The notes under the pieces were generated by a model. That model saw nothing but the letters and a program-made list of their open reading frames with translations. It had not been told where the DNA came from and made no database searches. This document shows, one piece after another, positions 2,624 through 57,786 of a stretch of DNA of 64,000 nt (positions are counted from its first letter, which is position 1; each line of letters opens with the position of its first letter). The position numbers and the translations under genes are program-made. The DNA comes from Protoeuglena noctilucae (Eukaryota), in contig OY253687.1 in NCBI GenBank assembly GCA_958009085.1, positions 434,001 through 498,000 on the forward strand, in the 5' to 3' direction.

Positions 2624-2728
2624 TGGATTTTGGGACCACATGTGCCGTTCCGTTCTCGTCTCAGCGATACGCTTCAAGGCCCCTGCACCCAGCTGCCCTG
2701 CACCCCGCTGCTCGCCCCTAGCATGCCA

Positions 2729-5700: not shown

Positions 5701-5770
5701 GAACGGGCAGCAAGACCGTGGGCCGGCTTCGCGGAGCCGGTGCGCGCATCGCGTTCGCCGAGATGCGCAT
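2729..5770 (-). CDS. cpSRP54: Chloroplast signal recognition particle 54 kDa protein, multi-exon
   Basis: Transit-peptide-like N-terminus, [30 protein letters not shown]-loop, [22 protein letters not shown]-domain [13 protein letters not shown]; ends GKGFAKA*; start codon approximate. Confidence 0.93.
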
Positions 5771-6410
5771 CGGGGCGCCGCCGACAGGCCCAAGCGGCAT
5801 GTACCTTGAATGGCGACCCTGGGTCCCGCCACCGGTTGGGCGCACCGTTGGCTGCCTGCGGATATATCTCAGGGGTGGCTGCTCGGCCCCGCGAGGCTGT
5901 TGGCGCGGTCTGGGCAGCCAGGTGAGGTCTACCTAGACGACAGCGTCTAAAGCGCCATCGAAGCAGCCGCGCAAGCGTTGATGGGCGCGGCAGACCCACC
6001 CAGGGGGCGAAGCCCAACGATGGGGCTCATCATGACAGCCATCGGGCCGCTTGTACGGCCTGGCAGCAGGCTTCGGAGCTTGCAAGGAGCGCCCTTCGCT
6101 TCTCAGCGACGGATTTCTAGGCAGGCGAAGTCGATACACCCTTGCGCACGTTCAATGCACAATGGCCCCGTGCCCCTCGAGGCCAATTTGGATGCGCTAG
6201 CCGAGCAAAACCTCCGCGTACGAACGAGGAAGACGAGCCAGAAGAGCAGCCTCAGCTGCGCCTCACGATGGCGTAGGAAACTCGACGCAAGAGCGGACAC
6301 TGCGTCCGCTTGGCCAACTGCTGGACCGATGGTGTAAAGACAAGCAAAGGCGATAGATGCCTACACAGGCCCCGCTTACCCACATCCCGATTATCAACAG
6401 GGAGCGTCAA

Positions 6411-8337
6411 TTAGTACGGCACGTTCTTCGGGAGGTCCCTGATGACGTTGCCCCGCGTTGCCTGCATGGAAAAGCACGCTCAAAGCTTGACTGTATTGCT
6501 TCGAATAAACGCAATCTGCAGGAAAGCAAATCACGCGTCCCCCGCGCGCACCTGGTTCTTCATCTGCCGGTGCTGGACCTGGGCGCTCTTACGCTGCGCA
6601 AAGGCCTCCCGCTTTTCCACCGTCGTCTGCTGTGTCGGCAAACTCATATCCCGGTACTTGGCCACCGTCTGCCGGACCACGGCGGACTGGCGCGTGTCGG
6701 GGAGCCGGGGCCGCTGCCGGTAGTACCTGCGGAGGCGGTGGCGGAAAGCACTCGCTCCCTGACCGCAGCTACGGCCGCGGGCGTCGAACAAGCCGAGTTA
6801 CAAGCGCGGCATCTCACCGGAGGAACTCGCGCGTCCCAAGAATTTTAAACGTCCCCGCGAGGCTGTCGCTGATCGTCAGCTCGTACCCCGACGCCGTCAC
6901 GCCCACTTCGATGTTGGAGAGCTGCTTCTCCTCCTCCGCCCGGCTGTAGTCGTAGAACTCCTCGTACTCCTCCTCGTTATCGTCGTAAACTGCAGCGCGA
7001 GGGAGGATGAGGCGTTGCTGCGGCTGCAGCCGCACCATCATCGCGTGCCAGCGGCAGGGCAACCGCAGCAACCAAACGAGCCGGCATCGCGGCCACCCAG
7101 CGAAACCCCGCGACGACGCACCCATGAAGCACTTGTTGGAGTCCAGCATGTGCTGCTGCACGGCGCGCAGCGATCGGAACTGCTTGCCGTCCGGGTCGTC
7201 GCCTCGCACGTACAGCGGGAAGTGCCCGACCGACAGCTTCATCCCCAGGTAGCGCACGAGGCCCTCCGGGTCCTTCAGGAACTCGGCGTCTGGCAAAAAG
7301 AAGCCGTGCGCCTTGTACATGTGGTCCAGGTTGCCCGAAAAGGCGTCGTGCCCTCTGCGCGGAGGGCGGACAAGAGCGGTGCGCGCCGGGTGCCAAAGCC
7401 GCGAGACCTCGGACAGCCTGTCACCTATCCGCGCTCACTTGCTGCAGAAGAGACACCGCTTCTCGTCCCACTCCTCCCACTGCGCGTCGGCGGAGCCCTC
7501 GTCGGACGCCGTCTCCCAGTCCCCCGAGGCATCGTCGTCTTCGTCCGCCTGCGGTGACGAACGACATATCTCACGAGCATGCACCAGGCAAGCCAACGCG
7601 GCGGAGCTGAGCAAGAGCCAGCACGGGCCCAGTGTGGGGGCCAAGAGACGCACCCGAGCCTGCCCGTCTGCCGCGGCCGGGACCTGCGGGCGCTCCGCCG
7701 CAGGTGCCGCGCGCACGATGACCTCGGGCGCGGGACCTCCCGACTTCTTCACCAAATCCCGGTACTTCTTGGACTGGGTCCACGCCCGGTACGTGTTCTC
7801 CGAGCTGAACTTCTTGTTCGTCAGCGGGCAAATCCACACGCGCGCCTGCGCAGACGTGCTAGCCCCCAGCAGCTGCGCCTTCCGGGCCTCGAACCACTCC
7901 TTCGACACGGGCGGAAGGTCGGCGGCACGGCGCTGCGGGCGGGGCCGAGCGCGCGATCGACGGCGGGCCCTCGAGCTCGCAGAACGTCACCGGCCGGAAA
8001 AACAGAGATCGACCGCGTAGTCTACGCAGCGCGCGGCCGCCGGGGCTCAACCGCAGCTCGCCTTCAGGTTGCACCGGTGGAAGTCGCTTCGGTAGTGCTC
8101 CTGCAACGACTCCTTGTCCGGGAAATACGTCCCCGAGGTGCTGCAGTAGAACCCCTGTCCGGTCGCTTCCGCGGAGGGGCCCAAGGGGGACCGAGCGACG
8201 TTGCCCGGGCCACCCGCAGCAGCCACCCCGGCCGCAGCGAAGGCAGCGGACGGGGGGGCAATCTCGTGGGGTGCTGCAGATGTTGAATGGTCAGGCTCCT
8301 CGCCGAAGATGGCCCAGGGGTCCTCCTCCGCGGCCAT
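6411..8337 (-). CDS. REI1: Pre-60S ribosome maturation factor REI1/ZNF622, multi-exon
   Basis: HYRSDFHRCNLK/RRAADLPPVSKEWF, HMYKAHGFFLPDAEFLKDPEGLVRYL, LGTREFLRYYRQRPR, ends NVIRDLPKNVPY*. Confidence 0.92.
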
Positions 8338-9407
8338 GGTCGAGGAAGTAGGTCACAGCGCCTTGACGCGTCAAGAGCGGGGAACGTAGCTAGCAGCGCC
8401 GTGTCACCGGATGTGTCAAAGGATGCGGCGTCAAGAGTCACGCTGCTTAGGCTTCTACTGCCCCCAGGCCAGGCCCCTGACAGCGTGCCACCGGGCGCGT
8501 GTCGCAGAAGGGCATACGATGGGGCACGCCGCCTGGGGTGCGGAGCGCCATTTTGCTGCAGAGCTGCTTCTGTGGATTGTCCAGAGGTCGGCCAGTCGTT
8601 TATCAGGGGCACGGGGAGGGAGTGCAAATTTCTGCATACGGCGTGCCCACACCTGCTGTAGCCCCGGTCCGCGCGTCACGGGAGGTTAGATAGTACGATA
8701 GCGGGTACCCCGCCGAGCTCTCCGCTGCGGGGATGGTGCGCAAGCAGGTGTGTTCATCGACGTTGACCGGTGCCCTTCCCTCCGGGTCAAAGCCGCCCAC
8801 GCCTTCGGGCGGCTCGTAGCCTTGCGCAGCACAGATGAGCGAATCGAGTTGTGGGAGGGCAGCTGCGGCCGCGCTATGGGCTATCTTGGCGCGGCAAGGC
8901 GGTGACATGGGAGGGTTGGGACTTGTGCCGTGTATCGGCCGCAACCCGCGAGGGGTTTGTCTTCCGCCTGCGTTAATTTTTCATACCGGAGCCCGATGGG
9001 ATGCCTGGCGGCCCCTGTTGGGTCCCCCGCCGGCCTGCTCTCCCGGTCGGGCGGGCCCCAGTGCCGCTGAAGGACTTCAGAACCCTTGGCGCCTTGGTCG
9101 AGACAAACACTCTTCGTTTATCTTTGCGCGGCCTAGGCTTTCCGGTTGTTTCGCACCCTCGTTTCCTCGATCGCGGATGGGTTTGACTTGCGCGGGCGGG
9201 GAGGGCTGCATGCGCTCACCCGCTGCAAATGGTCATAGCTGAGGTGCTTTCCGCCGCGGGTGGATGCACGCGTTTTTGGGGTGGAGCTCGTGCGGCCCGC
9301 TGGGACCCAGTTTTCGCTTGCGTGGACCTTGATGCGGCTGCTGAGGGCGGGACCTAGCTTGCTTGGCCGGCGGGCCGGGCGCTTCGGGCCCCGGGGGGCG
9401 GAGAAGC

Positions 9408-13326: not shown

Positions 13327-13562
13327 AGACCCTTTTTGTTGGTTGCTCATCCTCCTCCCTTGCCGTGCACGTGCGGGCCAGCGGATCGTCGTGCACTGCC
13401 TCTAGATGCGTCGCCCGCCGCCTCGGTCTAGGTCGGTCGTGCTGTGGTGTTGAAACGTGAGATCTCTGTCGTGCATCGGGCGCTTGAGTGCCGCCTTGGT
13501 CGCTCGCTGGGCTCCAGAAGCTCGGCCTGGAGAGGCGCCTAGGCTGGCTACGAGAGGGGATC

Positions 13563-43404: not shown

Positions 43405-43440
43405 AGGGGGAGCATGAGTGGGATGCTGGCACTGTATGAC

Positions 43441-46388
43441 GATGAGCGATTCAACAGTCGAGGGGTGCTATGACTCTCAGAGCCACGCCTTGCGGCAGAA
43501 GTGCCGTCCCCCGGGGCAGCTGACACCCCGGGGTTTCCATCGTTGCAGTGCATATGGCACGTGGCCCGCCCCCGCTAGGTCGCCCCACCCTAAGGCAAAG
43601 GGGTCGCCCACCCCGGGTTCTTGCACCCCTAGCCCCCTCGCTGCGCCCGAAGGCAGAATCGCCGTCCCAGAGTGGGACGATGCAGCCGCGGGGGCCCTCC
43701 GTGGAGACCCCCGGGCGTCTATTACAAAAGGTGAGGCCGAGGCTAATGACGATCTGTGAAGCTTATGTGCGGCCAATCATGACATCCCCCGCTCCCTACC
43801 CTCCTCCCCTCCTCCTCAGGCGGCCCGGCTGCTCGCCCACCCGGCCATGCTGCCCCGGACGCGAGGGCGGTGGGGGCGGTCCGAACGCAGACGGCGTTCC
43901 TTGGGGGGCGCAGCGTTGCCCCTGGGCGCCCCGCTCGCCCACGCTGCGCCCCTGAGGGCCGGCTGCCTCTCATGTGGACCGCCCCAGACCGCCCCACTCC
44001 GGGTGCGTGCGCCGGCACAACCCACTCGGCCGTGTGCCCAGAGACCCACGACGCGACCCCGCTCCTCGCTCCCGCACGTCGACCTTGGCCCTTGGCCCGT
44101 CCTCTCCCGCGCCCGTCGGCCTTGGCCCGTCCCTCAACTCCTCGCCCCCACACGCCCAGATGATTTTGGCCTGTCACGCTAACGACCTTGGCCTATCACG
44201 CTGACGACCTTGGCCCATCACGCTAACGACCTTGGCCAAATGCGCTGACGACCTTCAACCGACGCTGTGGCGACCCTGGCCCTTTAACGCTGACGACCTT
44301 GGCCCACCTCCCGCTCCGCGCACCCGCGCGCCCTGATAACCGTGGCCTGCCTCGCGCCCCCGTCGCCCCCCAAAACACCCGGCACCCCTGTGTCGCCCAG
44401 CCCATGCCCACCCACACCATTCGATGCCCCTTGTGTTACTCTCGCCGCCGCCGCTGGCTCTTGCCGCGCTGCCATCGCGCCCGCCCCCAAAAGCCCGCTG
44501 CCCTGCTGTGTGTCGTGCGAGGGGTCGCCCCCGCCAGCGCCACCATGCCGGGCGCCAGCACCCCACGCCGTCCGTTGCTCTCCTGCAGGGCCTCCTCAGC
44601 AGACTCCCAAAGACAGGCCCTCCGGCCCCGCTTGCGCTCCCACTCTCCCCGCCTCGTCGCAGCCACGCCGCTCTCTGATCCTGTGGCGCCTGGTCCGTTC
44701 TGCGCCACTGCCGGGTGTTCCCACGATATCCCCGGCGTTCCGCCCCACGGGCGCCACGTCTCTCGCCACTGTCTGAGTCTCTCGGCCCGTTACTGCCAGC
44801 TCTGCCCCGACGTTTGTCCCTCGTCGCACCCTTTGCCAGCTCCCCCCAGCGGGGCTGGTCTCTCACGTTGGCTGGAGCACAGGCGACGCGCTGACGACCC
44901 CCACGCGGACCCACCCGACCAGCGCCAGAGCCCCTGAAGGACCACGGGCGGGGAGGCCACGCGGCACGCGCAGCACCGTGGGTGTGCTGGGCGCGCCACG
45001 ACGGCGACGGAGCAGACGCCCCCCGGGTGAGCGCTGGCGGCTGTGGGACACCAAGGGCCTGCGATGCATGGCTGCAAAGGGCTAGGGTGAGGCAAGGGTG
45101 CGTGTGCGCGTCCGTCCAGGTCTGCGGTCAGGGAGAGGAGCCGGTGTGCGTGACGGAGGATGAGTGCTGTCGGGAATCCAGACCTGCGGCTGGCAAAGAG
45201 GGTGGTCGTGGCGGGATGTGAGGAGGGCTGTCCGTGATTGGGGGAGGTCGGGAGGTGCGGATGCTGTGCTGGATCAGTATGTGGTGCTTGGTGTGTGGGG
45301 AGTGATGCGCTGAGGGAGGCGTGTGCTCACCTGGGCACTAGCTGTGAGGAGAGGGTGCTGAGCCTTACCTGTGCAGCCAGGGGGGGAGTGCGTGGGGCAG
45401 GAGGGCTTGCGAAAAGGGCGGGTCTGGTTGGGCGTGTGAGGTGAGGTGTGTGGGGGGGCGTGGTCCGTGAGAAGGGTGTGGCGTGGGGCTGGCAGGAGGA
45501 GGGGTGGGAGATGATGCGTGCTGAGCAGGAAGGTGGTTTATGTGGGGGTCCATGTGGAAGAGGAGAGGGGGTTGAGAGGTGAACGTGTGTATGTCAGTGG
45601 TGATGCGCGGTGAGTGGGCAAGAATGGTGCTGAGCGGCGAGATCGTGAGATGAGTGACGAGGGTGCGTGCAGAGAGTTAGACGGCGTGTGTGGTCTGGTT
45701 GGAAGAGGCATCTACCTGTTAGCTGCGGGCATGGACGGGGAGGCGTGGCATGCGGGTGAGTGCTGCTGGGGCAGGGTGCGTGTGCAGTGGGATGTGGGGG
45801 GTGGAAAGTGTGTGTCATAGGAAGGCAGTGGGCTGGCTTAGGGACCTGGTGGGAGCAATGCGGTCGGGTGGATGTGGGAGTAATGCGGATTGGGGTGGGG
45901 TGGCATGGCCGGCTGCGGGGCAGGTGAGGAGAAGGCGTGTGGGTAAAGCTGTCGAGTGTGCGTCCGAGAACCTGCGAGGCATGCGAAAGATGGAGCGTGG
46001 GTGCGCAGAAGCCCTTGGTGTGCCGAGCGCCGGCACCCTCCCCGTGAGGCGCCCGCCCTTGCCGCCACAGCGCGCCCCACGCCCCTGCGGCTGCGCGCGC
46101 ATCGCGTGGACCCCCCGCCCGCGGCCCCTCTCAGGCTCCGGCTCCGGCCAGGCAGCCCAGGGGGTCGCCGGTGGCGCCGCCGTGCGGTACTCCAGCCCAT
46201 GTCATCCTGGGTGCAGGGGAGCTTGTTTTGGCCGGCAGACGGACTCTTCCGTAGATGCTCAGTGTGGCCGTGGGCGCCCCAGTTGGCCGGGGCGCCGACG
46301 CCGGAACGAGCAGCCCGAAGGCCACCCGTCCGGCGCCGGCGCCCCGGCCCGAATGTCGTGGGGTGATGGCGTGCTGCGAATGAAGAGG
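43441..46388. repeat. Copy 1 of a ~2.3-2.9 kb repeat; probable long 3' region of the adjacent LINE
   Basis: Colinear with 55252-57583 from GATGAGCGATTCAACAG to GCGAATGA; homology ends ~6 bp from the LINE stop codon. Confidence 0.9.
44176..44305. repeat. ~22-bp tandem repeat, about 6 copies (consensus ACGCTGACGACCTTGGCCCATC)
   Basis: Units at ~44176, 44198, 44220, 44242, 44262 and 44287. Confidence 0.85.
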
Positions 46389-46393
46389 CCCCC

Positions 46394-49300
46394 TCAGGGG
46401 AGTAGCGGCTCGACGGCTGCCCATGTGGGCGCAGTGTAGGTGAAGGTGGACCTCGCCGGGTCCCTTGGGTGTAAGAGGGCGTCGTCAGGGTGCGTGCAGC
46501 GCGCGAGGGCCCGCCCGCCCCGGTACGCCGCCAGAGCGACGAGCTCCTCGGCCATGATGCGCGTCATCTGCGCGAACAGCTGTGCCGGGGACGCGTCCGC
46601 CCCCGCGTCCTTCGTCAGCTGCTGCCGCCTGCGCCAGATGACCTGCACGGTCGCCCCCGCCACGACCGCCCACGTGAGCGGCCCCAACCGCGCGCCCTCC
46701 GGCACGCGCAGCAGAAAGAGGGCCGACGGGCGGAGGGGCGCCCCCTGCGCCCCCCCCGCCCACGCCACGATGCCCCTCGCCACGCGCCACACCTCCCGCG
46801 CGCGCGAGCACTCCCAGAACGCGTGGGCCGCGCTGTCCTTTCCCATGCACGCCTCCCCCTCCTCCGTCAGCAGCGGGCACTCGTCCCGCTCCGCCCAGTA
46901 AATCCTGTCCTGCGTAGCCCACCCGTCCGCCAGCGTCAGCCACAGCCGCTCGTGCAGGGCGTCCGACAGCGGCAGTCCGTTGAGCGCCACCAGCGTGCGC
47001 CTCAATCCCTCTCCCGTTAAGCCGTGTCCCTCCCCTAGCGCCGCCGCCCAGCCCTCCGCCTTGCGCTCCAGCCGCTGCCGGATCGCCGCCCTGTCACACG
47101 TCGTCCTCGCCGCCTCCCGCACCGTGTAGGAGGCCAGGTCCAGCGCCGCCTTGGAGGCGACGCCGGGGTCCAGTGCCCAGCCCGGCGCGGTGGCCGTCAT
47201 GGGCCGGTAGAAGTCGTTGGCCTCCCCGCCGCCCGGGGAGGCAAGTCGCAGGCGCTCCATGAAGCCCTCCGTGAGCGCCAGCCCGTCCCACGGGTCCCAT
47301 TGCCCCTCCACGTCTGGCCGGGCATACTCGTTGCCCGGCCCAAGGAGGCCCAAGTCCAGCATAAAAGCCCCAACCACCCAGCCGAGGCCCCTCCGATCCA
47401 CCCCCGGCAGCCGATCATAGCCCAGCGCGAACGCCCAGGAGACCCACGTGTCCCATCGCCGCGCCGGGTCCCGCATGCAGAGATAATGCCCCACAGTTCC
47501 GAAACCCCGTAACGCCATCGCCCTCCCCACCGGGTGCAGGAGGAGGGGCCGGCCGCCCCCCGCCGGCCACCCAGCACCCCCCTCGTCGATCCCATCATCC
47601 GTATTGTCGTCGCCCGGCGCGCCGTCGTGCACCCACGCCCCACCAGCCCTCCCATGGACGCCCGTCGCGAAGCTGTGGAGCGATGAGGCCGAATCGTCTT
47701 GGTCCTGTCCCATGTCGTTGTGGAGGGGGCCAGCCGCCCCCTCCATCGCCGGCGCCCCCAGGGCTGCCACCCCCGCGCCCGGGCCGCCCCCGCCGGCGGT
47801 ACAGAGGACCCCCGGGGTGAGAAGCGACGCGCAGAGTAGATCCCCCTTTGTAGTCCCAGTGACGGGGGTGAAGAAGTCCGTAGAAGAGGCGAAACGCGAG
47901 CCGTCCGTGCCCGCCAGGCCCCCGCCGCCCACGCGCGCCCCCCGCCAGCCATGCCCGTCCATGGCCACGTTGGACAGGCGGTCCGCCAGGGCGTTCTGCT
48001 CCCGTGGCACGTGCTCCCAAGTGATGTCGAGGCCCGCCGCGAGCCTCTGCGCCTCGGTCCACAACGGCACCAGCGCCGGGTGCCGCAGCGCCGAGCAGTC
48101 CCGCGGATCCATGGCGCGGATGACGAGGAGGGAATCCCCCCGGACGCGGAGCTTGGTGGCGCCGAGCTCGACTGCCGCGCGTAGCCCTCCCAAAAGCGCG
48201 GCGAACTCGGCCTGGTTGTTGGAGGCCCCGCGCACGGCGGGGCCCGCGAGCTCCAGCGTCTCCACCCCCTCGCCTTCCCCGGCCGCCAGCACCGCCCCCG
48301 CGCCAGCCGTGGACGTGTCGGAACCGTTGCCCCGCGAGCCCCCGTCGAAGTTGAGCGTCAGCCGGCCCTCCGCCGCCAGGTTGGTCCAGCGCTGCTGGGC
48401 GACCTCGTCCGTCGTGGGTGCCAGAGGTGGCGGCGCGTGCACGGGCCCGAGGGTCGCGCGCAGGGACCCGAGGCCCTTGATGGCGTCGCAGAAGCTCTCG
48501 AGCGCCGGTAGCTTGCCCCGCAGGCGGCGGGACTCGATCAACTGCGCCACGTGGCAACCGTCCGTCTCGGGCAGTGAGAAGGGCAGCAGGCCCAGCCGGC
48601 CTGCCCCGAGCCCCTCCAGGCACGCCGTGAGGATGCCAGCGAGACCGCCCAACTGGCCGTGAGCGCCCACGCGCTTCGTGATGAGGGCGCGCGCCAGGTG
48701 CCGGAGCCGCCGCGCCGCCGTGTGCGCGTCCAGCGGGAGGGCGCCCAGCCCCCCCTCCTCCGGCGGGGCGGTCAGCATGATGCGGCCCACACGGAACCAC
48801 ACCTGCCCCGCCGATCGTGCGTTGAGGACATAGCGCTCCTGGACCCTCCGCAGGTCAGCGACGCACGAGTGGTCGGCGGCGGGGGACATCTCCAGGTGGT
48901 ACCCCGCGAGCGAGGTGATGTAGGCGTTGGCGACGCGCGCCCGACCCCGGATCGGCAGCCCCAGCGATGACGCCGCGTCCGCGCGGCGCAGGGCCTCCCC
49001 CAGCCGCCCGGGCCACACCAGCGCCGCCTGCTCTCTCGTCTGCGCCCCCAGCAGCCGCACGCCCCCCGGCTCCACCCCCCACGGGCAGCCCTGCGCGGCG
49101 GCCTTGGCCTCCTGCCGCTTGTTGATGCGTCCCAGTCGGTAGAGCTTCGTCTTGGTCTGGCTCGCCTTCAGCCCGGACACACGGTGGAAGTCCCGCAGCA
49201 CCTCGGCCAGCTCCCGCCACGGGTCGAGTTGGTTCCTGTCGCGCCCCACGAGCCGTTGGAGCAGCACGTTGAAGTCGTCGGCGAAGGCCAGCAGCGTCTC

Positions 49301-51529
49301 GGCCCTGCCGCCCGTCGTCCGGATGCCGAGCACGCGGTCGCACCGCGGGCCGCCCGGCAGCTGCACCGGCTCCTGGCCCCACGCCCGCAGCCTCTCTGCG
49401 AGGGGCTCCACCGCCAGCACGAAGATGAGCGGGCTCAGGGGGCATCCCTGCTTGACGCCCCGGTTGAGCGGGAACGGCTCCCCCGCCGCCCCGTTGAGGA
49501 CCAGGCTCGCCCGGCTGTCGCTCTGCAGCGCCACCGCCGCCTTGACAAAACGCGGCGGGAGCCCTCCCCACGCCATCGCGTCCGCAGCCCACCCCCGGAA
49601 GGCCGTGTCGTACGCCTGTTCGAAGTCCACCAGCACCGCCCACGCCGACTGCCGCCGGATGCGCATGAGCTCGTCGAGCAGATGCAGCGAGTAGATGGCC
49701 GTCCCAATGTCACGCCCGGGGACGAAACCCAACTGGTCCTCGTGCACGAGCTGCGGCAGCACCCGCAGCAGCCGCGCCGTCAGCACCTTGGCCGAAGACT
49801 TGTAGAGGACGGACAGTAGGGAGATGGGGCGGTACCGCCGCCAGTCCGTCCGCGAGCCGCCCTTGTGGATGAGCGTGATGGCGGCGTCCGCGAGGCGGCC
49901 GTCGTGCCCCTCGCCGCGGAGGAGCTTGTTGACGAAGTAGGCGACCACCCGCTCGACACCCGCCTCGGTCCCGGTGCCCTGGCACGCCTTGAGCAGCGCC
50001 GGGGAGATGCCGTCCGCGCCACCGCAGCTGTCGCCCCGTAGACCCTGTATCGCCTCCGCCGCCTCCGCCCGTGTCACGTCTGCCTCGAGAGCGGCCCTCG
50101 CCTCCTCCGACAGCGGCGACCGCGGGTTGCGCAGGAAGTTAGCGCGTGCCCTCTCATGTTGGCCGTCCGCGGAGGCAGGGGGCGCGGCAGGGGCGTAGAG
50201 CTGGGCCATGTTGGTCTGCAGGTCCCGCGCGAGGTCGTCCGTGACGCCCTCGACCCGCCGCCGCCACTTGAAATGGGCCGTGATCCGCCGACTCGGCACG
50301 GCCCCGAAGACCCGCAGAAAGTGCTTCGCCCGCTCGCTCTGCCACTGGACCTCCTGCTGCTCCAGCACCGTCAGCTGGCGCTGCAGGTCCAGCATCCGGT
50401 CCCAGTCCTCCGTCGCGTTCGTCCGCTGCGCCCTCCTCTCTGCCCGTCCCAGTTGCTTCTCCAGACGCCTCCGCTCCCCGTCCCGCCGCCGCCGCACCAC
50501 CAGGTTGATCGCCTCCGCGCGGTGCCGGATGACCTTGGCCACTCGCACCGACGTGCACCCCGGCCCGTCCGCCGGTAAGTCCCTCCACACACCCCGCCGG
50601 AATCGCTCGGCCTCATGGCTCCCCGGCGCCCAGAGCGGCCGGACCTGCCGCAGCGGGTTGCGCCCCGCGGCCCTGTCTGCCCGCCGCCGTAGCGTCAGGA
50701 CGAGCGCCTTGTGGTCCAGCCCGGGCACGAAGCGCGCCGCCAGCGTCGCCGGGTACCGGACCAGCAGGGCCGGGCGCGCCAGGCAGCGGTCAATGCGCGC
50801 CGCCGGCGTCGCTGCCCCCTCCGCTCGCGCCCCGAACCACGTGTAGGTGTCCCGGCGCAGCCCCAGCTGCACGTGCACGTCCGCCAGCCCCTGCGGCCCC
50901 GTCACGTTCTCCGTCCAGTGGATGACCTTGGCCAGGTCGTCGTGGTAGCGCCGGGACGCCCGCTCGAGCGGGTGACCCGACGTGCAGTTGAAGTCCCCAA
51001 CGACGATCGTCTCCCTGTGCGCCTGGCGAGGCGGCATCAGATGCCGCAGCCGCGCAGTGAAGTCCCTGTGCGCTGCCGCCCCCCCGGACGCCGGCGCGTA
51101 GACCCCCACCACCGTGAAGCGCCGGTCGGCCCATGCGAGGTCGACTGCGCACGCCCGCCCCGCCAGCCCTTCCACGTCCGCCCCGCGCCGCGTCGGCGCG
51201 CCCGCCACCGACTCCCGATGTACCAGCACCCCCACGCCCCCCGGGCCGCCGTTCTCGTCCAGCGACCAGTGGCAGAAGTATTGGGGGAAGAATCCCGACG
51301 CCACCGCCTCCTGCCCCGCCCGCATCTTGACCTCCTGTAGAACCACCACGTCCGCCCGCAGCCTCCGCACCAGCCGCCGCACCGTCGCCCGCTTGCCCGC
51401 CATGGCCCCGCTCGACAGCCCCCGCACGTTGACGCTGACGACCCGCAGGTCGTCGGGCGCGAGGTCCCGCGCCGCGCTCCGCCTTCCCCGTCGCCGTGGC
51501 CCGCGCGCCGGCACCGCGGCCGGCGCCAT
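46394..51529 (-). CDS. LINE ORF2 polyprotein: APE endonuclease, reverse transcriptase, RNase HI, CCHC-like zinc motif (~1711 aa from the first ATG)
   Basis: APE: SVNVRGL, LQEVK, GDFN, RIDR, DHKAL; RT: YRPISLL, DFEQAYD, GVKQGCPLSP, FADD; RNase H: FDGGSRGN, NNQAE, GDS, HVPREQNALAD; C-terminal ECP...C...HAFWEC; frame open up to 51820. Confidence 0.96.
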   Translation of the reverse strand: MAPAAVPARGPRRRGRRSAARDLAPDDLRVVSVNVRGLSSGAMAGKRATVRRLVRRLRADVVVLQEVKMRAGQEAVASGFFPQYFCHWSLDENGGPGGVGVLVHRESVAGAPTRRGADVEGLAGRACAVDLAWADRRFTVVGVYAPASGGAAAHRDFTARLRHLMPPRQAHRETIVVGDFNCTSGHPLERASRRYHDDLAKVIHWTENVTGPQGLADVHVQLGLRRDTYTWFGARAEGAATPAARIDRCLARPALLVRYPATLAARFVPGLDHKALVLTLRRRADRAAGRNPLRQVRPLWAPGSHEAERFRRGVWRDLPADGPGCTSVRVAKVIRHRAEAINLVVRRRRDGERRRLEKQLGRAERRAQRTNATEDWDRMLDLQRQLTVLEQQEVQWQSERAKHFLRVFGAVPSRRITAHFKWRRRVEGVTDDLARDLQTNMAQLYAPAAPPASADGQHERARANFLRNPRSPLSEEARAALEADVTRAEAAEAIQGLRGDSCGGADGISPALLKACQGTGTEAGVERVVAYFVNKLLRGEGHDGRLADAAITLIHKGGSRTDWRRYRPISLLSVLYKSSAKVLTARLLRVLPQLVHEDQLGFVPGRDIGTAIYSLHLLDELMRIRRQSAWAVLVDFEQAYDTAFRGWAADAMAWGGLPPRFVKAAVALQSDSRASLVLNGAAGEPFPLNRGVKQGCPLSPLIFVLAVEPLAERLRAWGQEPVQLPGGPRCDRVLGIRTTGGRAETLLAFADDFNVLLQRLVGRDRNQLDPWRELAEVLRDFHRVSGLKASQTKTKLYRLGRINKRQEAKAAAQGCPWGVEPGGVRLLGAQTREQAALVWPGRLGEALRRADAASSLGLPIRGRARVANAYITSLAGYHLEMSPAADHSCVADLRRVQERYVLNARSAGQVWFRVGRIMLTAPPEEGGLGALPLDAHTAARRLRHLARALITKRVGAHGQLGGLAGILTACLEGLGAGRLGLLPFSLPETDGCHVAQLIESRRLRGKLPALESFCDAIKGLGSLRATLGPVHAPPPLAPTTDEVAQQRWTNLAAEGRLTLNFDGGSRGNGSDTSTAGAGAVLAAGEGEGVETLELAGPAVRGASNNQAEFAALLGGLRAAVELGATKLRVRGDSLLVIRAMDPRDCSALRHPALVPLWTEAQRLAAGLDITWEHVPREQNALADRLSNVAMDGHGWRGARVGGGGLAGTDGSRFASSTDFFTPVTGTTKGDLLCASLLTPGVLCTAGGGGPGAGVAALGAPAMEGAAGPLHNDMGQDQDDSASSLHSFATGVHGRAGGAWVHDGAPGDDNTDDGIDEGGAGWPAGGGRPLLLHPVGRAMALRGFGTVGHYLCMRDPARRWDTWVSWAFALGYDRLPGVDRRGLGWVVGAFMLDLGLLGPGNEYARPDVEGQWDPWDGLALTEGFMERLRLASPGGGEANDFYRPMTATAPGWALDPGVASKAALDLASYTVREAARTTCDRAAIRQRLERKAEGWAAALGEGHGLTGEGLRRTLVALNGLPLSDALHERLWLTLADGWATQDRIYWAERDECPLLTEEGEACMGKDSAAHAFWECSRAREVWRVARGIVAWAGGAQGAPLRPSALFLLRVPEGARLGPLTWAVVAGATVQVIWRRRQQLTKDAGADASPAQLFAQMTRIMAEELVALAAYRGGRALARCTHPDDALLHPRDPARSTFTYTAPTWAAVEPLLP

Positions 51530-51893
51530 CCGCGGCGGCGGCGGCGGCGGGGGCAGATTCCCCAACGGCGGCAGCGGGATGGGTGGGAGCGCGCCGATAC
51601 GCGCTCCCGGCGCCTCTCCAACCTCCGACCCTTGCGCTCCCGAGCTTCGAACGCCTCCAGACCGACTCTCCCCGCTCCCCCGGCCTCGCAGACCGCTCCC
51701 GCCCCCCCTTCTCCTCGCGCAGCCATGCTGCCCCAGCGCGCCCCCGCGCCGCGCACCCGCGCCCGCTCCGCCTCCTCCGCCCCCCGTAGACCCCCCGTAG
51801 ACCGCCCCGCTCCCACGCAATGGTCGATGCTGGCGCTTCTTTACCCTCTAAAAAAGTTATTTCCGGAGTCACAGGTTGCAAAACGTCGTCCAG

Positions 51894-51898
51894 AAAAA
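51894..51898 (-). terminator. Pol III terminator (T5) of tRNA-Ala
   Basis: TTTTT starting 2 nt after the discriminator base; further T-runs at 51880-51883 and 51850-51855. Confidence 0.8.
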
Positions 51899-51899
51899 G

Positions 51900-51971
51900 T
51901 GGAGATGCTGGGATTCGAACCCAGGGCCTTCCGCATGCAAAGCGGACGCATTACCATTTTGCTACACCCCC
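51900..51971 (-). tRNA. tRNA-Ala(UGC)
   Basis: GGGGGTG-TA-GCAAAATGGTAATGC-G-TCCGC-TTTGCAT-GCGGA-AGGCC-CTGGG-TTCGAAT-CCCAG-CATCTCC-A; cloverleaf, anticodon TGC, G3:U70 Ala identity pair. Confidence 0.95.
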
Positions 51972-52067
51972 ATCGGACCCGAACCCGCGACGTCTCGGAC
52001 GCCCGCCCCTGCCGCTGGCAGCAGGGGGCGGGCGCCCCGCCGTGCCTCACCCTGCTCAACCGCGGGG

Positions 52068-52075
52068 TATAAGAG
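52068..52075 (+). promoter_or_regulatory. TATA-like box of the YbaK-exonuclease gene
   Basis: TATAAGAG in GC-rich context ~49 bp upstream of the ATG; duplicated at 57883. Confidence 0.45.
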
Positions 52076-52116
52076 AGGCCCGGGGGTCTCTGCCAGCGTC
52101 TGGCGCTTCGTCACCG

Positions 52117-54893
52117 ATGCAGCCGTCCTTTCAAGCGTCTGGACTTCGCCGGCGAGCGCCGCACACTCCCGCCATGCTGCAACCGCGGCCTGGCGCCTCC
52201 CAGGTGCCCCGCGCGGCCCGCGTCCGGGCGCACGGCGCCAACGTGCTGCCGGGGCCGGGCATCGCGCCCTGGCTCGCCTCCAGGGGCGCCGACCACGGCG
52301 CGCACCTCGTCGCCCCCGACGGCACCGGCGTGCCGCCCTCCGCGGTGCCCTGCAACACCCTCGTCGTGCGCGTTGGCCGATCGCGCGTCGTGGCCGTGCT
52401 CCTCGAGGCCGCCGCCCGCCTGGACGCCGGGGCCGTCGCCAGGCACCTGGGTCTCAGCCGCGACAGGGCCGCGCTGGTGCCGGAGGATGCCCTCGTCGCG
52501 CTGACGGAGTGCCAGGTGCGAAGGCGGTCGTGTTGCGACGACAGCAAGAATCTGCTGCAGCTCTGCCAAGGATCGCCGGGTCCGACCAAGCCCCCCGCAT
52601 CCTCGCCTCCTCGCAGCCCGGCGTGGTGCCCCCTCTCGGCCACGCGTCCTCCCTGCCCATCCTGGTCGACACGGCCCTCATCAGCTGCCCCGCCATCCTG
52701 TGCGGGTCTGGCGACCCCTCCCACCACCTCCTCCTCTCGTGCGACGACCTCCTCACCCTCGCTCCGGACACCACCGGTGGGCAGGCTGCGTCACCATGCG
52801 TGCCCTCATCGCCTCATCGTGGAGTACCACTCCACTTCCATCCGTCCCAAGCTTTACGCTCCCAACCCCCCCACCTAAGCCTCACTCGGTGCCCCTCAGC
52901 CCCCCTCCCCGCAGTCGCGCCCCTCACCACCTGGAGCTCGCTTGTCCCCTGCGACCCACCGCCCCCACGCCCCGCCTCTCCGGCCTCAACCCCGGCCGCG
53001 TCCACGAGCACCGCACTGCCGGCAGACACCCCTGTCGAGCTCCTGGCGAGGGTGGCCTCAGCGCGGCGCTTGGCGAAACGCCTCCTTTTTGCCACCGTGA
53101 CGCCGTCCTCGGCGCCTCTCCCAGACACCGGGGACCACGGAGCCACAGCACTGTGGCTGGTCCCGGGTGTGACCGCGCCATGCTCGGTGCAGCTCATCAT
53201 GGGTAAAACCCTCGAAGCGAAGCTGGGCGGGCCGGAAGTGGAGGCGTTCCTGTCTCGGATCCGCCGCGGCGTCGCTCTGCGGGTGCGGGGCGTGGTGAAG
53301 GGGGAGCGTGCGCGGTCAGGCAGGGCGCGGGCGTCGGAGCCGGCGGTGGATGCGGTGGCGGCGGAGGTGGAGGTGCTGGAGGAGTGGGCGGTAGGCGAGG
53401 GCGGTGGGACCGCGACGAAGTCTGCGGTTCTCGGAGGGGGCAGTTTGGCCGGGGGCGGGGCAGGGCAGAGCGAGAGGCGTCTGGTGGAGCTCCTTTGCGA
53501 CGCTGGCGGAGGTGCGTGTGCGTGCGTAGCTATGCCGGGCACCTGCCCCAGCTTCTCTTTTCTGTACCCGCACGCGCACCCGCACCTGCACCCACACCCA
53601 TTCGCAGTGGATTCGGCCGTGATCCCCGAGCCAGACGCCGTGGCGAGGGTCGTTACGCGAGCGGCAGCGAGGAAAGCGGCCTTTCAAGACAAGAAGGGGC
53701 GGAAGGACGTGCGGGGGACCGCGTCCGACACGCCAAGCCCGGCGGCGTTCTGGCAGTGCACTCTGCCAGAGACCAGCATTGTCGTGGTGGACAACGTCCC
53801 TAAGCTGCTGGCTTGCTGGGCGCAAGTCACGGGCGATGCAGGGAGCGAGGAGATCAGGAATGAGCGACAAGCCAGGGCGCGCGAGGCGCAGTCCACGTCG
53901 GCTCCTGCGCACGTGTGCGGGGTGGACGCGGAGTGGGACCCGTACGGTCCCTCCCTGCCCCGCACCCCCGTGAGCCTGCTCCAGCTCAGCACGCGCGACC
54001 GGTGCTTCGTCCTCGACCTCCTCGCCCTCTGCCGGTCGCCCCACGCACGCATCACGGACAAGGCGAGTCGCCCCATGTAGCACTGCCTTGAATGCCGCGC
54101 TGCTAGTACCCGCAACCGCCCAGTCATCTGACCGCTCCCGAGTCAATGGGGCTCCCCGCAGGGCTCGGAACCGGTCGAGCTGCCCGAGGACGTGACGGCC
54201 CTCTCCGACACGCTGACTCAGCTGACTCAGGCCGGGGGAAGCCCCGGGTCCCTGACAGCGCGGGGCCTCACCGTGCCAGAGCACGTCCTCAGCGCGGTCC
54301 TGTCCAACATCTGGGCCCGCCCGGACGTCGCGGTTCTCGGCTTCGGCCTCGCCTACGACCTCACGCGGTTCCACTGCTCCTACCCGCACCTCCCCTGCTG
54401 CGGGGGCGCGGGGCGGGTCGTGGGGTCAAGCGTCCCGGGCGTCCCCGCAGCTACCCTCGGCATGCAGGCGTTTGAGGCTCCCACGCCGCCCCCGCTGCGC
54501 ACCCACGTGGATGTCCTGGCGCTCGCCCGGCTCTGCTCGCGGCCCCTGGCGGCCACGCAGCGCGTGTCGCTGTCGCGCGTGTGTCAGCGGATGCTGGGGC
54601 GCCCGCTGGACAAGTCCCAGCAGTGCTCCCGGTGGTCCTCGCGGCCGCTGTCGCCGGAGCAGCTCCGGTACGCCGCCTGCGACGCGCACGTTCTGACGGC
54701 CGTGTTTGACAAGTGCTTGCAAGTGGGGCTCAAGCCACCCTCGCGCGGCTGGAAATGGCTCGCTGCAAACGTGGGGGTCCATCGGTCGGCTTTTGCGGAT
54801 GAGAGCCAGGCTGCGCCACCGCCGCGGCACGCTTTCACCCGATGGGCGACACAACGGTGGGGTCAGCACCAGCGTCGGTGCGCCAGTCGCTAG
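52117..54893 (+). CDS. YbaK/tRNA-editing-like domain + OB-fold-like domain + Mut-7/EXD3-like DEDDy 3'-5' exonuclease fusion, with probable transit peptide
   Basis: CNTLVV...RLDAGAVARHLG...ECQ/PGVVPPLGH...ILVDTAL...CGSG (YbaK-like); VELLARVASARRLAKRLLFATV...VQLI...LRVRGVV (OB-like); GVDAEW, LLQLST, LGRPLDKSQQCSRWSSRPLSPEQLRYAACDA (exonuclease). Confidence 0.82.
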
Positions 54894-55251
54894 ACAGCAA
54901 GAAGTGAGACAGAGGCCTCTCCCGAACTCTGTGGCATCTGGAGCTGTGAGCTGCTGCGTCCGTCTGCTCTCGCAGGACCCACGGCGGCTGTCGCGCCACA
55001 GCGGTATGTGGTTTGGGAGGAGCCCCGCTGACCGTCTAGTGTCAGTCATAGCGTGTGCGTTGATATCCATAACTTTCTCCGCTGCACAAGCGGCGTTCCC
55101 GTTCCTTATCAGAGGGCTGGACTGCCGTGCCCCCAAGCGGGGAGGCAGAAGAACTTGGGTTGGATTCTGTTGTCAGAGCCACAGTAGCACTACTCACAGC
55201 ACTACTAACCGCCCAGTACATGGGAACTCGAGGCACGTGTGCGTGTGTCAT

Positions 55252-57583
55252 GATGAGCGATTCAACAGACGAGAGGTGCTGTGACTCTCAGAGACACGCC
55301 TTGCGGCAGCTAACACCCCGCAGTTTCCATTGCTGCAGTGTTCATAGCACTCAGACCCGCCCCGCTAGGTTTGCTAGGTCTCCCCACCCTAAGGCAAAGG
55401 GGTTGCTCACCCCTAGCCCCCTCGCTGCGCCCGAAGGCAGAATCGCCGTCCCAGAGTGGGACGATGCAGCCGCGGGGGCCCTCCGTGGAGACCCCCGGGC
55501 GTCTATTACAAAAGGTGAGGCCGAGGCTAATGACGATCTGTGTAGCTTATGTGCGGCCAATCATGACATCCCCCGCTCCCTACCCTCCTCCCCTCCTCCT
55601 CAGGCGGCCCGGCTGCTCGCCCACCCGGCCATGCTGCCCCGGACGCGAGGGCGGTGGGGGCGGTCCGAACGCAGACGGCGTTCCTTGGGGGGCGCAGCGT
55701 TGCCCCTGGGCGCCCCGCTCGCCCACGCTGCGCCCCTGAGGGCCGGCTGCCTCTCATGTGGACCGCCCCAGACCGCCCCACTCCGGGTGCGTGCGCCGGC
55801 ACAACCCACTCGGGCGCCCCCACGCGCCCAGATGACCTTGGCCCACCCCACACTCCGCGCACCCGCGCGGGCCTGCCTCGCGCCCGTTGCCCCCCACACA
55901 CCCGACACCCCTGTGTCGCCCAGCCCATGCCCACCCACACCATTCGATGCCCCTTGTGTTACTCTCGCCGCCACCGCTCGCTCTTGCCGCGCTGCCATCG
56001 CGCCCGCCCCCAAAAGCCCGCTGCCCTGCTGTGTGTCGCGCGAGGGGTCGCCCCCGCCAGCGCCACCATGCCGGGCGCCAGCACCCCACGCCGTCCGTTG
56101 CTCTCCTGCAGGGCCTCCTCAGCAGACTCCCAAAGACAGGCCCTCCGGCCCCGCTTGTGCTCCCACTCTCCCCGCCTCGTCGCAGCCACGCTGCTCTCTT
56201 AGCTTGTTGCGGGGCTGGTCTCTCACGTCGGCCGAAGCCCAGGCGACGCGCTGGCGACCCCCACGCGGACCCACCCGACCAGCGCCAGAGCCCCTGAAGG
56301 ACCACGGGCGGGGAGGCCACGCGGCACGCGCAGCACCGTGGGTGTGCTGGGCACGCCGCAACGGCGACGGAGCAGACGCCCCACGGGTGAGCGCTGGCGG
56401 CTGTGGGACACCAAGGGCCTGCGATGCATGGCTGCAAAGGGCTAGGGTGAGGCAAGGGTGCGTGTGCGCGTCCGTCTGGGCCTGTTGTCAGGGGATTGCG
56501 GTGACAGTGTGCGTGATAGAGGTGGGTGCTGTCGGGAATCCAGACCTGCGGCTGGCAAAGAGGGTGGTCGTGGCGGGATGTGAGGAGGGCTGTGCGTGAT
56601 TGAGGGGAGGTCGGGAGGTGCGGATGCTGTGCTGGGTCAGTGTGTGGGGGCTTGGTGCGCGAGTAGGGTGTGGCGCGTGGGGCTGGTAGTATGGGTGGTG
56701 CGAGATGATGCGTGCCGAGCTGAGAGGTGATGCATGTGGGGAGGCCATATGAGAGGGGAGAGAGGAATGTGGTCGTGTGCACACGTGTGCAATGTGGGTG
56801 GTGCGTGGTTAGTGAGGAAAAGGGATGCTGAGCGGGGAGGTCGTGAGGAGAGCGCCAAGGTGTGTGTATAGTGGAGGGTTGTGTGTGGTTTGATCGGAAA
56901 AGGCACCTACCTGTTAGCTGCGGGCATGGACGGGGCTGCGTGGCATGCGGGTTAGTGTTGCTGGGGCAGGGTGCGTGTGCAGTGTGATGTGGGGGGTGGA
57001 AAGTGTGTGTCATAGGAAGGCAGTGGGCTGGCTTAGGGACCTGGTGGGAGCAATGCGGTCGGGTGGATGTGGGAGTAATGCAGATTGGGGTGGGGTGGCA
57101 TGGCCGGCTGCGGGGCAGGTGAGGAGAAGGCGTGTGGGTAAAGCTGTCGGGTGTGCGTCCGCGAACCTGCGAGGCATGCGAGAGATGGGGTGTGTAGGCG
57201 AAGAAGCCCTTGGTGTCCCGAGCGCCGGCACCCTCCCCGTGAGACGCCCGCCCCTGCCACCACGGCGCGCCCCGCGCCCCTGCGGCTGCGCGTGCATCGC
57301 GTGGACCCCCCGCCCGCGGCCCCTCTCAGGCTCCGGCTCCGGCCAGACGGCCCAGGGGGTCGCTGATGGCGCCGCCGTGCAGTACTCCAGCCCACATCAT
57401 CCTGGGTGCAGGGGAGCTTGTTTTAGCCGGCAGACGGGCTCTCCCGTAGATGCCCAGTGTGGCCGTGGTTGCTCCAGTGGGCAGGGGCGCCGGCGCCGGA
57501 ACGAGCAGCCCGAAGGCCACCCGTTTGGCGCCGGCGCCCCGGCCCGAATGTCGTGGGGTGATGGCGCGCTGCGAATGATGAGG
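55252..57583. repeat. Copy 2 of the 43441-46388 repeat, with deletions and no LINE ORF
   Basis: Colinear alignment by eye; lacks the 22-bp array and the ~170 bp at 44675-44845. Confidence 0.9.
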
Positions 57584-57730
57584 AGGTCAGGAGGTCCAGG
57601 GCCGCCTCGTACACGAAGCAGGGATTCAGAGCTTAGCCCGGTGTGGTGCATGTCATGGGCCGGTCACAAGCTGTGGCGGCGCCAGTGCTGGAGTGCGCCA
57701 TGAGCGACGGTGAAGAGTGAGCGGAGCCGG

Positions 57731-57786
57731 CGAACCCAGGGCCTTCCGCATGCAAAGCGGACGCAATACCATTTTGCTACACCCCC
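57731..57786 (-). pseudogene. 3'-truncated tRNA-Ala(UGC) copy
   Basis: Matches 51916-51971 with one substitution, breaks after GGTTCG in the T-loop; the last 16 nt and half of the B box are missing. Confidence 0.9.

What the first reader, a model, noticed from the sequence alone, without database searches (positions are those of the whole stretch)
43441..57786. Putative tRNA-targeted non-LTR retrotransposon family: both copies lie directly 3' of a tRNA-Ala sequence
Seen: the open frame of an intact L1/Tx1-like element begins ~80 bp downstream of tRNA-Ala(UGC), in the same orientation with its 5' end facing the tRNA. The second, ORF-less copy of its 3' region (55252-57583) again lies ~150 bp downstream of a tRNA-Ala copy that is cut exactly at TTCG in the T-loop. 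Known: Dictyostelium TRE3 elements insert shortly downstream of tRNA genes, and several Tx1-clade elements target small-RNA genes as safe havens in compact genomes. Inference: a possibly undescribed algal tRNA-associated LINE. The alternative is one insertion followed by local duplication and deletion.
Basis: partly seen in the sequence, partly recalled or inferred. Interest (0 to 1): 0.75.

Follow-up and report, generated by a model that had tools for sequence, protein, structure and literature searches.

The report
Algal LINEs flanking tRNA genes
In this marine alga's genome, two sister families of LINE-type jumping genes sit almost only beside tRNA and other small-RNA genes, one mostly behind the gene and the other in front, a habit so far published for social amoebae and reached here by differently built elements.

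Summary
Window 43436-51796 (-) is a young L1-like element (family A): one ORF (APE, RT, archaeal-type RNase H, zinc knuckle), 3-kb 3' UTR, (ATC)n tail, starting 102 bp behind tRNA-Ala(TGC). 52 of 58 3'-end motif hits trace back to a Pol III gene. 17 of 18 score-selected nuclear tRNA genes have an element within 1 kb; about 1% of the genome does. All 45 nearest elements point away from the gene. At single genes, A or its non-autonomous partner B lies downstream (20 of 20) and a sister family F (RT 46% identical) upstream (9 of 9), like Dictyostelium TRE3/TRE5 but without ORF1. 5S, U3 and a permuted tRNA gene are hit too; U1, U2 and a third LINE family are not associated. The second window copy is an old decayed A fragment (87-93% to all copies) abutting a young 630-bp duplication whose tRNA lacks its B box. 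No algal case was found in the papers searched; this scan noted a similar downstream habit in a yeast LINE. Tethering to Pol III factors is inferred, not shown.

The parts
43436..51796 (-). Family A non-LTR retrotransposon, young copy, 5'-truncated by about 385 nt relative to the longest copies
   Evidence: 96.8-97.6% identical to 5 other long copies; aligns to positions 386-8822 of the trimmed C6 reference
46394..51847 (-). Single open frame, 1817 codons stop to stop; first Met at codon 107 (nt 51529); element-derived only from 51796 down
50744..51436 (-). APE endonuclease domain (aa 138-368; motifs VNVRG, QEVK, GDFN, RID, DH present)
   Evidence: PF03372 E 2.7e-16; motif positions
49136..49843 (-). 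Reverse transcriptase domain (aa 669-904; QGCPLSP, FADD)
   Evidence: PF00078 E 2.1e-23; best solved relative human LINE-1 ORF2p, E 1.6e-29
47951..48361 (-). Archaeal-type RNase H (aa 1163-1299; D-E-D-D residues present by inspection); absent from sister family F
   Evidence: PF13456 E 1.4e-12; Rv2228c RNase H E 2.6e-18 and archaeal RNase HI E 1.2e-12; no such Pfam hit in F
46808..46879 (-). C-terminal zinc knuckle C-x9-C-x7-H-x3-C (zf-RVT-like)
   Evidence: sequence; ESM Atlas look-alikes of aa 1480-1817 carry PF13966 on 16-39% of members, score 0.96 (a lead only)
43436..46393 (-). 2.96-kb 3' UTR ending in a short (ATC)n tail (43436-43445)
   Evidence: most genome matches end at the same query position 137; tails shown
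43422..43430 (.). Candidate 9-bp target-site duplication, 3' side (5 nt beyond the tail)
   Evidence: the 9-mer occurs 3 times in the 64-kb window: 43422, 51826, 61120; not picked up by the automatic TSD rule
51826..51834 (.). Candidate 9-bp target-site duplication, 5' side; 29 nt of extra sequence lie between it and the element
   Evidence: by inspection
51899..51971 (-). tRNA-Ala(TGC) gene, intact; the anchor of copy 1
   Evidence: ARAGORN; Rfam 70.7 bits; a metagenome contig spans 51764-52404 with no difference (X1)
52100..55000 (+). Host gene (approximate ends) with aminoacyl-tRNA editing and 3'-5' exonuclease domains, divergent from the tRNA; not part of the element
   Evidence: PF04073, PF01612
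55248..57583 (-). Copy 2: old family A 3' UTR with internal deletions, beginning a few nt after the ORF stop
   Evidence: 87-93% to copy 1; no close twin among the copies fetched
57584..57730 (-). 147-bp spacer, in part a decayed ORF fragment (57592-57664)
   Evidence: 77% to 47136-47208 and to the other long copies; no other full match in the genome
57731..58360 (.). Young 630-bp duplicate of 51916-52545: tRNA nt 1-56 (57731-57786, B box cut) plus 574 bp of upstream flank
   Evidence: 3 differences in 630; junction seen in contigs of X2 and X9

Best explanation
Family A is a recently active, single-ORF, L1-like retrotransposon that chooses its insertion site by position next to a Pol III gene, not by target sequence. 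Shown: the anatomy, the genome-wide position and orientation bias, short target duplications of unrelated sequence, 5' truncation, nested arrays. Inferred from known non-LTR biology: the APE domain nicks the flank and the RT copies the RNA from its (ATC)n end; RNase H removes the template; template jumps add extra pieces at 5' junctions. Inferred by analogy with TRE5-A and Ty3 (about 55% of my weight): the protein is tethered to the Pol III complex on the gene. The alternative is that it reads the chromatin edge of the Pol III-occupied zone. A and B favour 34-208 bp downstream of single genes (one case 508 bp, U6); sister family F favours 137-216 bp upstream; all point away from the gene. With no ORF1, the aiming part must lie in the one ORF2-like protein, which also carries the non-autonomous B to the same side. 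Window copy 2 is an old decayed A fragment beside a later 630-bp duplication (about 70%); its history cannot be fixed from one genome.
For: 52 of 58 3'-end motif hits lead back through element DNA to a Pol III gene on their 5' side (reversed-motif control 0). 17 of 18 nuclear tRNA genes picked by Rfam score alone have A, B or F within 1 kb (16 of 17 without the window's gene). About 1.0% of the genome lies that close to an element; binomial P 3e-28 with that share doubled. 45 of 45 nearest elements on outer flanks point away. At 23 single genes: upstream 9 F / 0 A-B, downstream 0 F / 20 A-B, Fisher P 1e-7. Controls: 0 of 17 evenly spread 5-kb stretches hold an element or tRNA; 4 of 4 loci of a third LINE family have no credible tRNA gene in 10-16 kb (one doubtful long-intron call); U1 and U2 flanks are empty, 2 of 2. 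Direct repeats of 7 nt or more flank 15 of 42 A/B copies versus 76 of 1722 mismatched pairs, with unrelated sequences. 3 of 6 long copies keep a complete frame. A and F are sisters, FastTree support 1.0 among 88 RTs.
Against: At head-on gene pairs and clusters, A or B is the nearest element on 10 of 16 occupied outer (upstream) flanks, so 'A = downstream' holds there only if measured from the far gene, 168-450 bp. 6 of 58 motif hits are not anchored: two are continuations across 19-24 kb low-GC inserts, one sits inside such a block, and three (window copy 2, C20:818263, C23:207937) have no intact Pol III gene. C5:249147 (A) and C12:370528 (F) are further orphans. tRNA-Ile(TAT), 2 of 4 intact host-type 5S genes, and all 6 tRNA-Ser/5S units of contig C24 carry no element; with C24 the score-selected count is 17 of 24. 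27 of 42 copies showed no target duplication by the rule used. The tRNA census is incomplete (63 of 452 candidates scored). No new insertion, empty site or protein contact was observed.
Confidence: 0.86

Rival explanations
1. No active aiming: the elements insert broadly or in open chromatin, and selection in a gene-dense genome leaves survivors mainly in tRNA-gene flanks.
For: A handful of orphan copies exist. The genome is compact (26.3 Mb). Only fixed copies in one assembly were seen.
Against: Selection alone does not predict 45 of 45 pointing away, nor a 9/0 versus 0/20 split of sides between two sister families. A third LINE family persists away from tRNA genes. U1 and U2 flanks are empty.
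Confidence: 0.05
2. Self- or sequence-targeting: the elements insert into earlier copies or (ATC)n tails (Zepp-like or Tx1-like habit, recalled), and arrays seeded once near tRNA genes have simply grown.
For: Arrays are nested; long copies are preceded by short 3'-end pieces of A; several 3' junctions continue in ATC-like letters.
Against: The gene-proximal junctions lie in unrelated flanks at 29 single-gene flanks and 16 pair flanks, and the duplicated target words share no sequence. Seeding of so many arrays at Pol III genes still needs an explanation.
Confidence: 0.06
3. For the window only: one insertion behind the tRNA, then a local duplication with deletion, made both element copies.
For: A young local duplication of the tRNA block is real.
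Against: The element copies differ by 7-13% and the tRNA block by 0.5%; copy 1 is closer to copies on other contigs (97%) than to copy 2; their 3' flanks differ. It also says nothing about the other loci.
Confidence: 0.03

Closest known systems
TRE3 (Dictyostelium, L1-type non-LTR)
   Same: [quoted passage not shown]
   Different: TRE3-A has two ORFs, an oligo(A) tail and no RNase H (same paper). Family A has one ORF, an archaeal-type RNase H, a 3-kb 3' UTR, an (ATC)n tail, a window of 34-208 bp, and also sits behind 5S, U3 and a permuted tRNA gene.
TRE5 (Dictyostelium)
   Same: Upstream of tRNA genes in the opposite orientation; sister of the downstream family (PMC5006619, passages); TRE5-A also hits 5S and isolated A/B boxes (PMC5391098, abstract). 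Family F mirrors this.
   Different: TRE5 lands about 40-54 bp upstream and its ORF1 protein binds TFIIIB (PMC5911963). F lands 137-216 bp upstream, shows no separate ORF1, and ends in poly(T) or poly(G).
NLTR-A and NLTR-B (dictyostelids)
   Same: tRNA-targeting non-LTR elements with RNase H after the RT (PMC5006619, passages).
   Different: Both insert upstream (2-6 and 39-64 bp), have two or three ORFs, and RNase H replaces the zinc finger. A inserts downstream and has both.
Plant L1 elements with archaeal-type RNase H
   Same: RNase H downstream of the RT in an L1 ORF2 protein (PMC5203782, passages).
   Different: Plant L1s form their own clade in my tree (support 0.985), apart from A and F; they usually carry an ORF1; I know of no tRNA targeting for them (recalled).
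Tx1-clade target-specific elements (Dewa, Keno, Tx1L; names recalled)
   Same: L1-group, APE-type, inserted near or in multicopy small-RNA genes.
   Different: These recognise a fixed target sequence (recalled). Here the target words are unrelated and more than 30 different single-copy genes are used.

Membership tests
L1 group of non-LTR retrotransposons | N-terminal APE followed by an L1-type RT | tested here: met
   Pfam; best solved relative LINE-1 ORF2p E 1.6e-29 versus R2 1e-9
L1 group of non-LTR retrotransposons | C-terminal CCHC zinc knuckle | tested here: met
   C1657, C1667, H1675, C1680; wider first spacing than the mammalian motif as recalled
L1 group of non-LTR retrotransposons | Common 3' end with simple tail, 5' truncation, variable target duplications | tested here: met
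   15 of 42 versus 76 of 1722
L1 group of non-LTR retrotransposons | RT groups with L1 against other clades in a tree | tested here: inconclusive
   88-row FastTree built only from search hits, no outgroup clades, weak deep support
L1 group of non-LTR retrotransposons | Separate ORF1 (usual, not universal: PMC5203782) | tested here: not met
   the longest copy (C6, 9014 nt) has one long frame from nt 308, with no room upstream
TRE3 / TRE5 | Position- and orientation-specific insertion beside tRNA genes | tested here: met
TRE3 / TRE5 | Two ORFs (ORF1 binds TFIIIB in TRE5-A) | tested here: not met
   single ORF in A; in F the frame begins about 400 nt from the 5' end
TRE3 / TRE5 | No RNase H; oligo(A) tail | tested here: not met
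   A has RNase H and (ATC)n; F lacks RNase H but ends in poly(T) or poly(G)
TRE3 / TRE5 | RT falls in the TRE clade | not testable with these tools
   no protein named as TRE or from a dictyostelid was among the hits, so none could enter the tree
TRE3 / TRE5 | Targeting depends on an intact B box / TFIIIC-TFIIIB | not testable with these tools
   needs an insertion assay; one hint is a B-box-like word 120 nt before the C19 orphan copy
Tx1-clade sequence-specific elements | Conserved target sequence at the insertion site | tested here: not met
   junction flanks and duplicated words are unrelated across loci
Zepp (Chlorella) | RT clade and nested self-insertion (recalled) | tested here: inconclusive
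   nesting is present; no sequence named Zepp was available for the tree

The most novel reading that the evidence does not exclude
An ORF1-less pair of sister LINEs in an alga has independently divided the two flanks of Pol III genes between them. They reach all promoter types (tRNA including permuted genes, 5S, U3/U6), so they dock on a part common to all Pol III genes (TFIIIB or the polymerase rather than TFIIIC), using a determinant inside the single ORF2-like protein. Long copies also carry 5' tags taken from the downstream flanks of other tRNA genes, which would mean they are transcribed from the target neighbourhood and keep a record of earlier sites.
Probability: 0.45. Interest if true: 0.85.

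Novelty: new variant of a known kind. Interest (0 to 1): 0.72.

Why it matters
The reviews read list Pol III-gene targeting for yeast LTR elements and dictyostelid elements, and call downstream targeting a dictyostelid trait (PMC5911963). A third lineage with both a downstream and an upstream family is a clean case of convergence in a compact genome. How TRE3-type elements find the downstream side is, to my knowledge, unresolved. Here the two families are close sisters with one protein each, so domain swaps between A and F could map the side-choosing part directly. A single-protein LINE that lands in tolerated sites is also of interest for gene insertion in algae. These arrays break the assembly (several contigs end at them) and hide tRNA genes from annotation.

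Tried and rejected
A complete tRNA census was not obtained: the Rfam search scored 63 of 452 candidates, 39 of them on the two organelle-like contigs, and the custom model could not be run on this genome. No Cys, Phe or Tyr gene was located. Relatives elsewhere: protein searches returned only this family (99-100%), family F (P0003, 97.6% to F) and hits whose matches over most of the query were 20-37% identical. 78 metagenome loci were all distant; 1 of 78 had tRNA calls, on the 3' side of the match. So conservation of the habit in other species is untested. Laying 4 runs showed no empty site in the rows printed; all were contigs and none spanned the stretch, so absence and RNA coverage prove nothing. 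The first 100 nt of the C6/C19 5' tag has no source elsewhere in the genome. The careful tree did not finish; only FastTree was used. The permuted-tRNA test gave Ser(AGA) as the commonest call for C3 (18 of 126 rearrangements); for C21 my slice missed one half, so that gene is read by eye only. ARAGORN calls with introns over 150 nt were rejected as doubtful. Pol III read-through as the source of full-length A RNA was set aside because a TTTT run lies near nt 540 of the long copies. Papers: searches found no algal tRNA-targeting LINE; passages of two algal genome papers (PMC13213038, PMC12633428) do not describe one. Subscription journals, Repbase and supplements were not seen and could hold a prior description. 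No complex prediction was run.

Full report
Setting. The window is G000:C20:434001-498000 of a 26.3-Mb, 27-contig assembly, about 66% GC. Near-identical sequence occurs in marine metagenomes and in runs of coded organisms. A contig with inverted tRNA and 5S pairs looks like a plastid, and permuted tRNA genes are present; these are reported from a red alga, prasinophytes and Auxenochlorella (PMC12633428, passages). I take the host to be a marine alga, probably green; I did not test its lineage.

The observation. ARAGORN finds one tRNA gene in the window, Ala(TGC) at 51899-51971 (-). Behind it on the same strand is an open frame of 1817 codons with APE, RT and RNase H-like domains. Its best solved relatives are LINE-1 ORF2p and, for aa 1163-1299, Rv2228c and archaeal RNase HI. 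A zinc knuckle lies at aa 1657-1680. Homology with other copies begins at 51796, 102 bp from the tRNA, and ends in an (ATC)n tail at 43436 after a 2.96-kb UTR. A 9-mer at 43422 and 51826 may be the target duplication. The copy lacks 385 nt of the longest copies.

The second window copy. It covers about 55248-57583, is 87-93% identical to copy 1 and equally far from all other copies fetched. The cut tRNA is the edge of a 630-bp duplicate with only 3 differences, which includes 574 bp of upstream flank. The 147 bp between are partly a decayed ORF piece. The junction is crossed by contigs of 2 of 4 runs, so it is not an assembly slip. An old element next to a young duplicate whose B box is cut cannot count as a second targeted insertion. 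Either the duplicate landed there later, or an older tRNA-side locus was rearranged; one genome cannot decide.

The family in the genome. Five other long copies exist, 96.8-97.6% identical; 3 of the 6 long copies keep a complete frame. A 14-letter 3'-end pattern has 58 hits and its reversed control 0. Mapping the surrounding DNA shows three families. A is the window's element. B is a 781-nt non-coding partner with 81% identity to A's 5' region over 110 nt, 84% to its 3' end over 150 nt, and the same tail. F is a sister family with APE and RT but no RNase H, 46% RT identity to A, and poly(T) or poly(G) tails. Neither A nor F shows a separate ORF1.

Targeting, element side. 52 of the 58 hits lead back through element DNA, with no gap over 700 nt, to a Pol III gene on their 5' side (three anchors, C3, C10 and C21, were placed by eye). 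Of the other six, two continue across 19-24 kb low-GC inserts that split a copy in register, one lies inside such a block 120 nt behind a B-box-like word, and three have no intact Pol III gene: window copy 2, C20:818263 and C23:207937. C5:249147 and C12:370528 are further orphans.

Targeting, gene side. One search ranked tRNA genes by score alone: 63 hits, of which 39 are on two organelle-like contigs, 6 in the tandem contig C24 and 18 on C1-C23. 17 of the 18 have A, B or F within 1 kb; Ile(TAT) has none. About 1.0% of the genome is that close to an element (from the regions fetched, so a lower bound); with that share doubled P is 3e-28. Two of the 18 share a cluster with another, and one is the window's own gene. 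C24 has no elements, so including it gives 17 of 24; its 5S differs from those on C13, C16 and C18.

Side and orientation. In a table of 44 Pol III genes, all 45 nearest elements on outer flanks point away from the gene. At the 23 single genes, the upstream neighbour is F in 9 of 9 (137-216 bp) and the downstream neighbour A or B in 20 of 20 (34-208 bp, one 508 bp); Fisher P 1e-7. Most of these genes were found because an element was near, which does not bias side or family. At head-on pairs and clusters, where both outer flanks are upstream, A or B is nearest on 10 of 16 occupied flanks, 44-221 bp from the near gene and 168-450 bp from the far one. The downstream rule is therefore a preference. 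Left out of the table: the C21 permuted gene (array about 620 bp away), a tRNA-like gene at C10:604.8k, the partial 5S on C16, the two element-free 5S genes on C18 found later, C24, and doubtful long-intron calls.

Beyond ordinary tRNA genes. B lies 84 bp behind U3, with a target duplication; A lies 172 bp behind a 5S gene; B lies beyond the 5S/Gly pair; an A fragment lies 508 bp behind U6, a weak case. A lies closely behind a permuted tRNA-Ser gene on C3 that ARAGORN misses. 2 of 4 intact host-type 5S genes have no element. Controls: U1 and U2 flanks are empty; 17 of 17 evenly spread 5-kb stretches are empty; 4 of 4 loci of a third LINE family (about 25% identity) lack a credible tRNA gene.

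How it most likely works. Direct repeats of 7 nt or more flank 15 of 42 A/B copies versus 76 of 1722 mismatched pairs, and they share no sequence. With common 3' ends and ragged 5' ends, this is the signature of target-primed reverse transcription at sites chosen by position. The nick, priming and RNase H steps are inferred from established non-LTR biology. Tethering to Pol III factors is inferred from TRE5-A, whose ORF1 protein binds TFIIIB and whose targeting needs the B box (PMC5911963, passages). Here there is no ORF1, and B follows A to the same side, so the determinant should be in the single protein. The use of 5S and U3 points to a shared component, but reading of the chromatin edge is a real alternative. 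Arrays of fragments may partly be template jumps in one event, so I counted flanks, not fragments. The 5' tags of the C6 and C19 copies include 32 nt identical to the flank 219-250 bp behind tRNA-Lys(CTT) (E 6e-12) and 17 nt matching the flank behind the C21 permuted gene (E 0.006); this suggests transcripts that start in, or jump to, tRNA-side DNA.

Comparison with what is known. It works like TRE3 (A, B) and TRE5 (F): downstream and co-oriented, upstream and opposite, sister families (PMC5911963 and PMC5006619, passages; PMC5391098, abstract). It is not filed as a TRE: two ORFs, oligo(A) tail and absence of RNase H were tested and not met, and the RT clade could not be tested. A and F group together with support 1.0 and have no close relative among 88 RTs (next best 33%); deep branches are weak. 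Five searches found no algal case; subscription journals, Repbase and supplements were not seen. Earlier notes of this scan describe a yeast LINE 22-32 bases behind tRNA genes (unchecked), so downstream targeting may be more widespread than published; they did not change my reading.

Verdict. A real, strong and well-controlled pattern: a new variant of Pol III-gene targeting by L1-like elements, probably convergent with the dictyostelid system. Active targeting 0.86; the molecular tether is unproven. Interest 0.72.

Noticed in passing
G000:C8:151670-170947; C19:118205-146416; C6:46079-70108 (L087, L096, L103): Three blocks of 19-28 kb split an A or F copy in register beside tRNA genes. They are low in GC (0.43-0.57) throughout on C8, apart from a nested A copy on C19, and at both ends on C6. 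L087 encodes a helicase-endonuclease VII protein, a 792-aa and a 1067-aa unknown and a lipase-like protein. Possibly Polinton-like endogenous viruses that favour these arrays; no capsid or ATPase gene was looked for.
   Followed up: partly
G000:C3 about 13430-13515 (+); C21 about 355230-355340 (-): Two permuted tRNA-Ser genes (3' half before 5' half), missed by ARAGORN, each with elements downstream. C21 read by eye only.
   Followed up: partly
G000:C5:1128222 and C20:885717: Nuclear tRNA-Val(GAC) and tRNA-Ile(GAT) with G34, beside A34 genes for Ala, Pro, Thr, Arg and Leu. Nuclear tRNA genes look mostly single-copy and often form head-on pairs.
   Followed up: no
G000:C24:1-15866 (L093, L107): A tandem array of tRNA-Ser(GCT) facing a 5S gene, six units, with simple repeats and no A/B/F; its 5S differs from the dispersed 5S genes. 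It may be a separate array or foreign DNA.
   Followed up: partly
family F 3' ends, e.g. C4:429082, C18:373101, C16:55447: F copies end in poly(T) (one subfamily) or poly(G) (another) on the sense strand, unusual tails for a LINE.
   Followed up: no
G000:C15:694153-694176: The 5' junction of the C15 long copy holds about 23 nt equal to the empty form of the site where the C19 copy sits inside a low-GC block; the same word occurs in the C6 and C8 blocks. Unexplained.
   Followed up: no
G000:C16:885157-892981: An intact 5S gene and a 5'-cut duplicate with its downstream flank face each other, each followed by an A copy: a second case of a partial Pol III gene duplicate beside an element.
   Followed up: partly
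G000:C2, C7, C11 starts; C17, C18, C20, C21 ends: Several tRNA genes and arrays lie within about 1 kb of contig ends; C11 begins with (CCCTAA)n telomere repeats.
   Followed up: no
L141:3986-4134: A marine metagenome contig with a distant RT (28%) ends in two tandem tRNA-Ser(CGA) calls on the element's 3' side.
   Followed up: no
G000:C5:898k (L099:4069-8985 -), C8:121k, C16:625k, C1:779k: A third, single-ORF L1-like family (1638 codons, APE + RT) that is not near tRNA genes; used as a control.
   Followed up: partly
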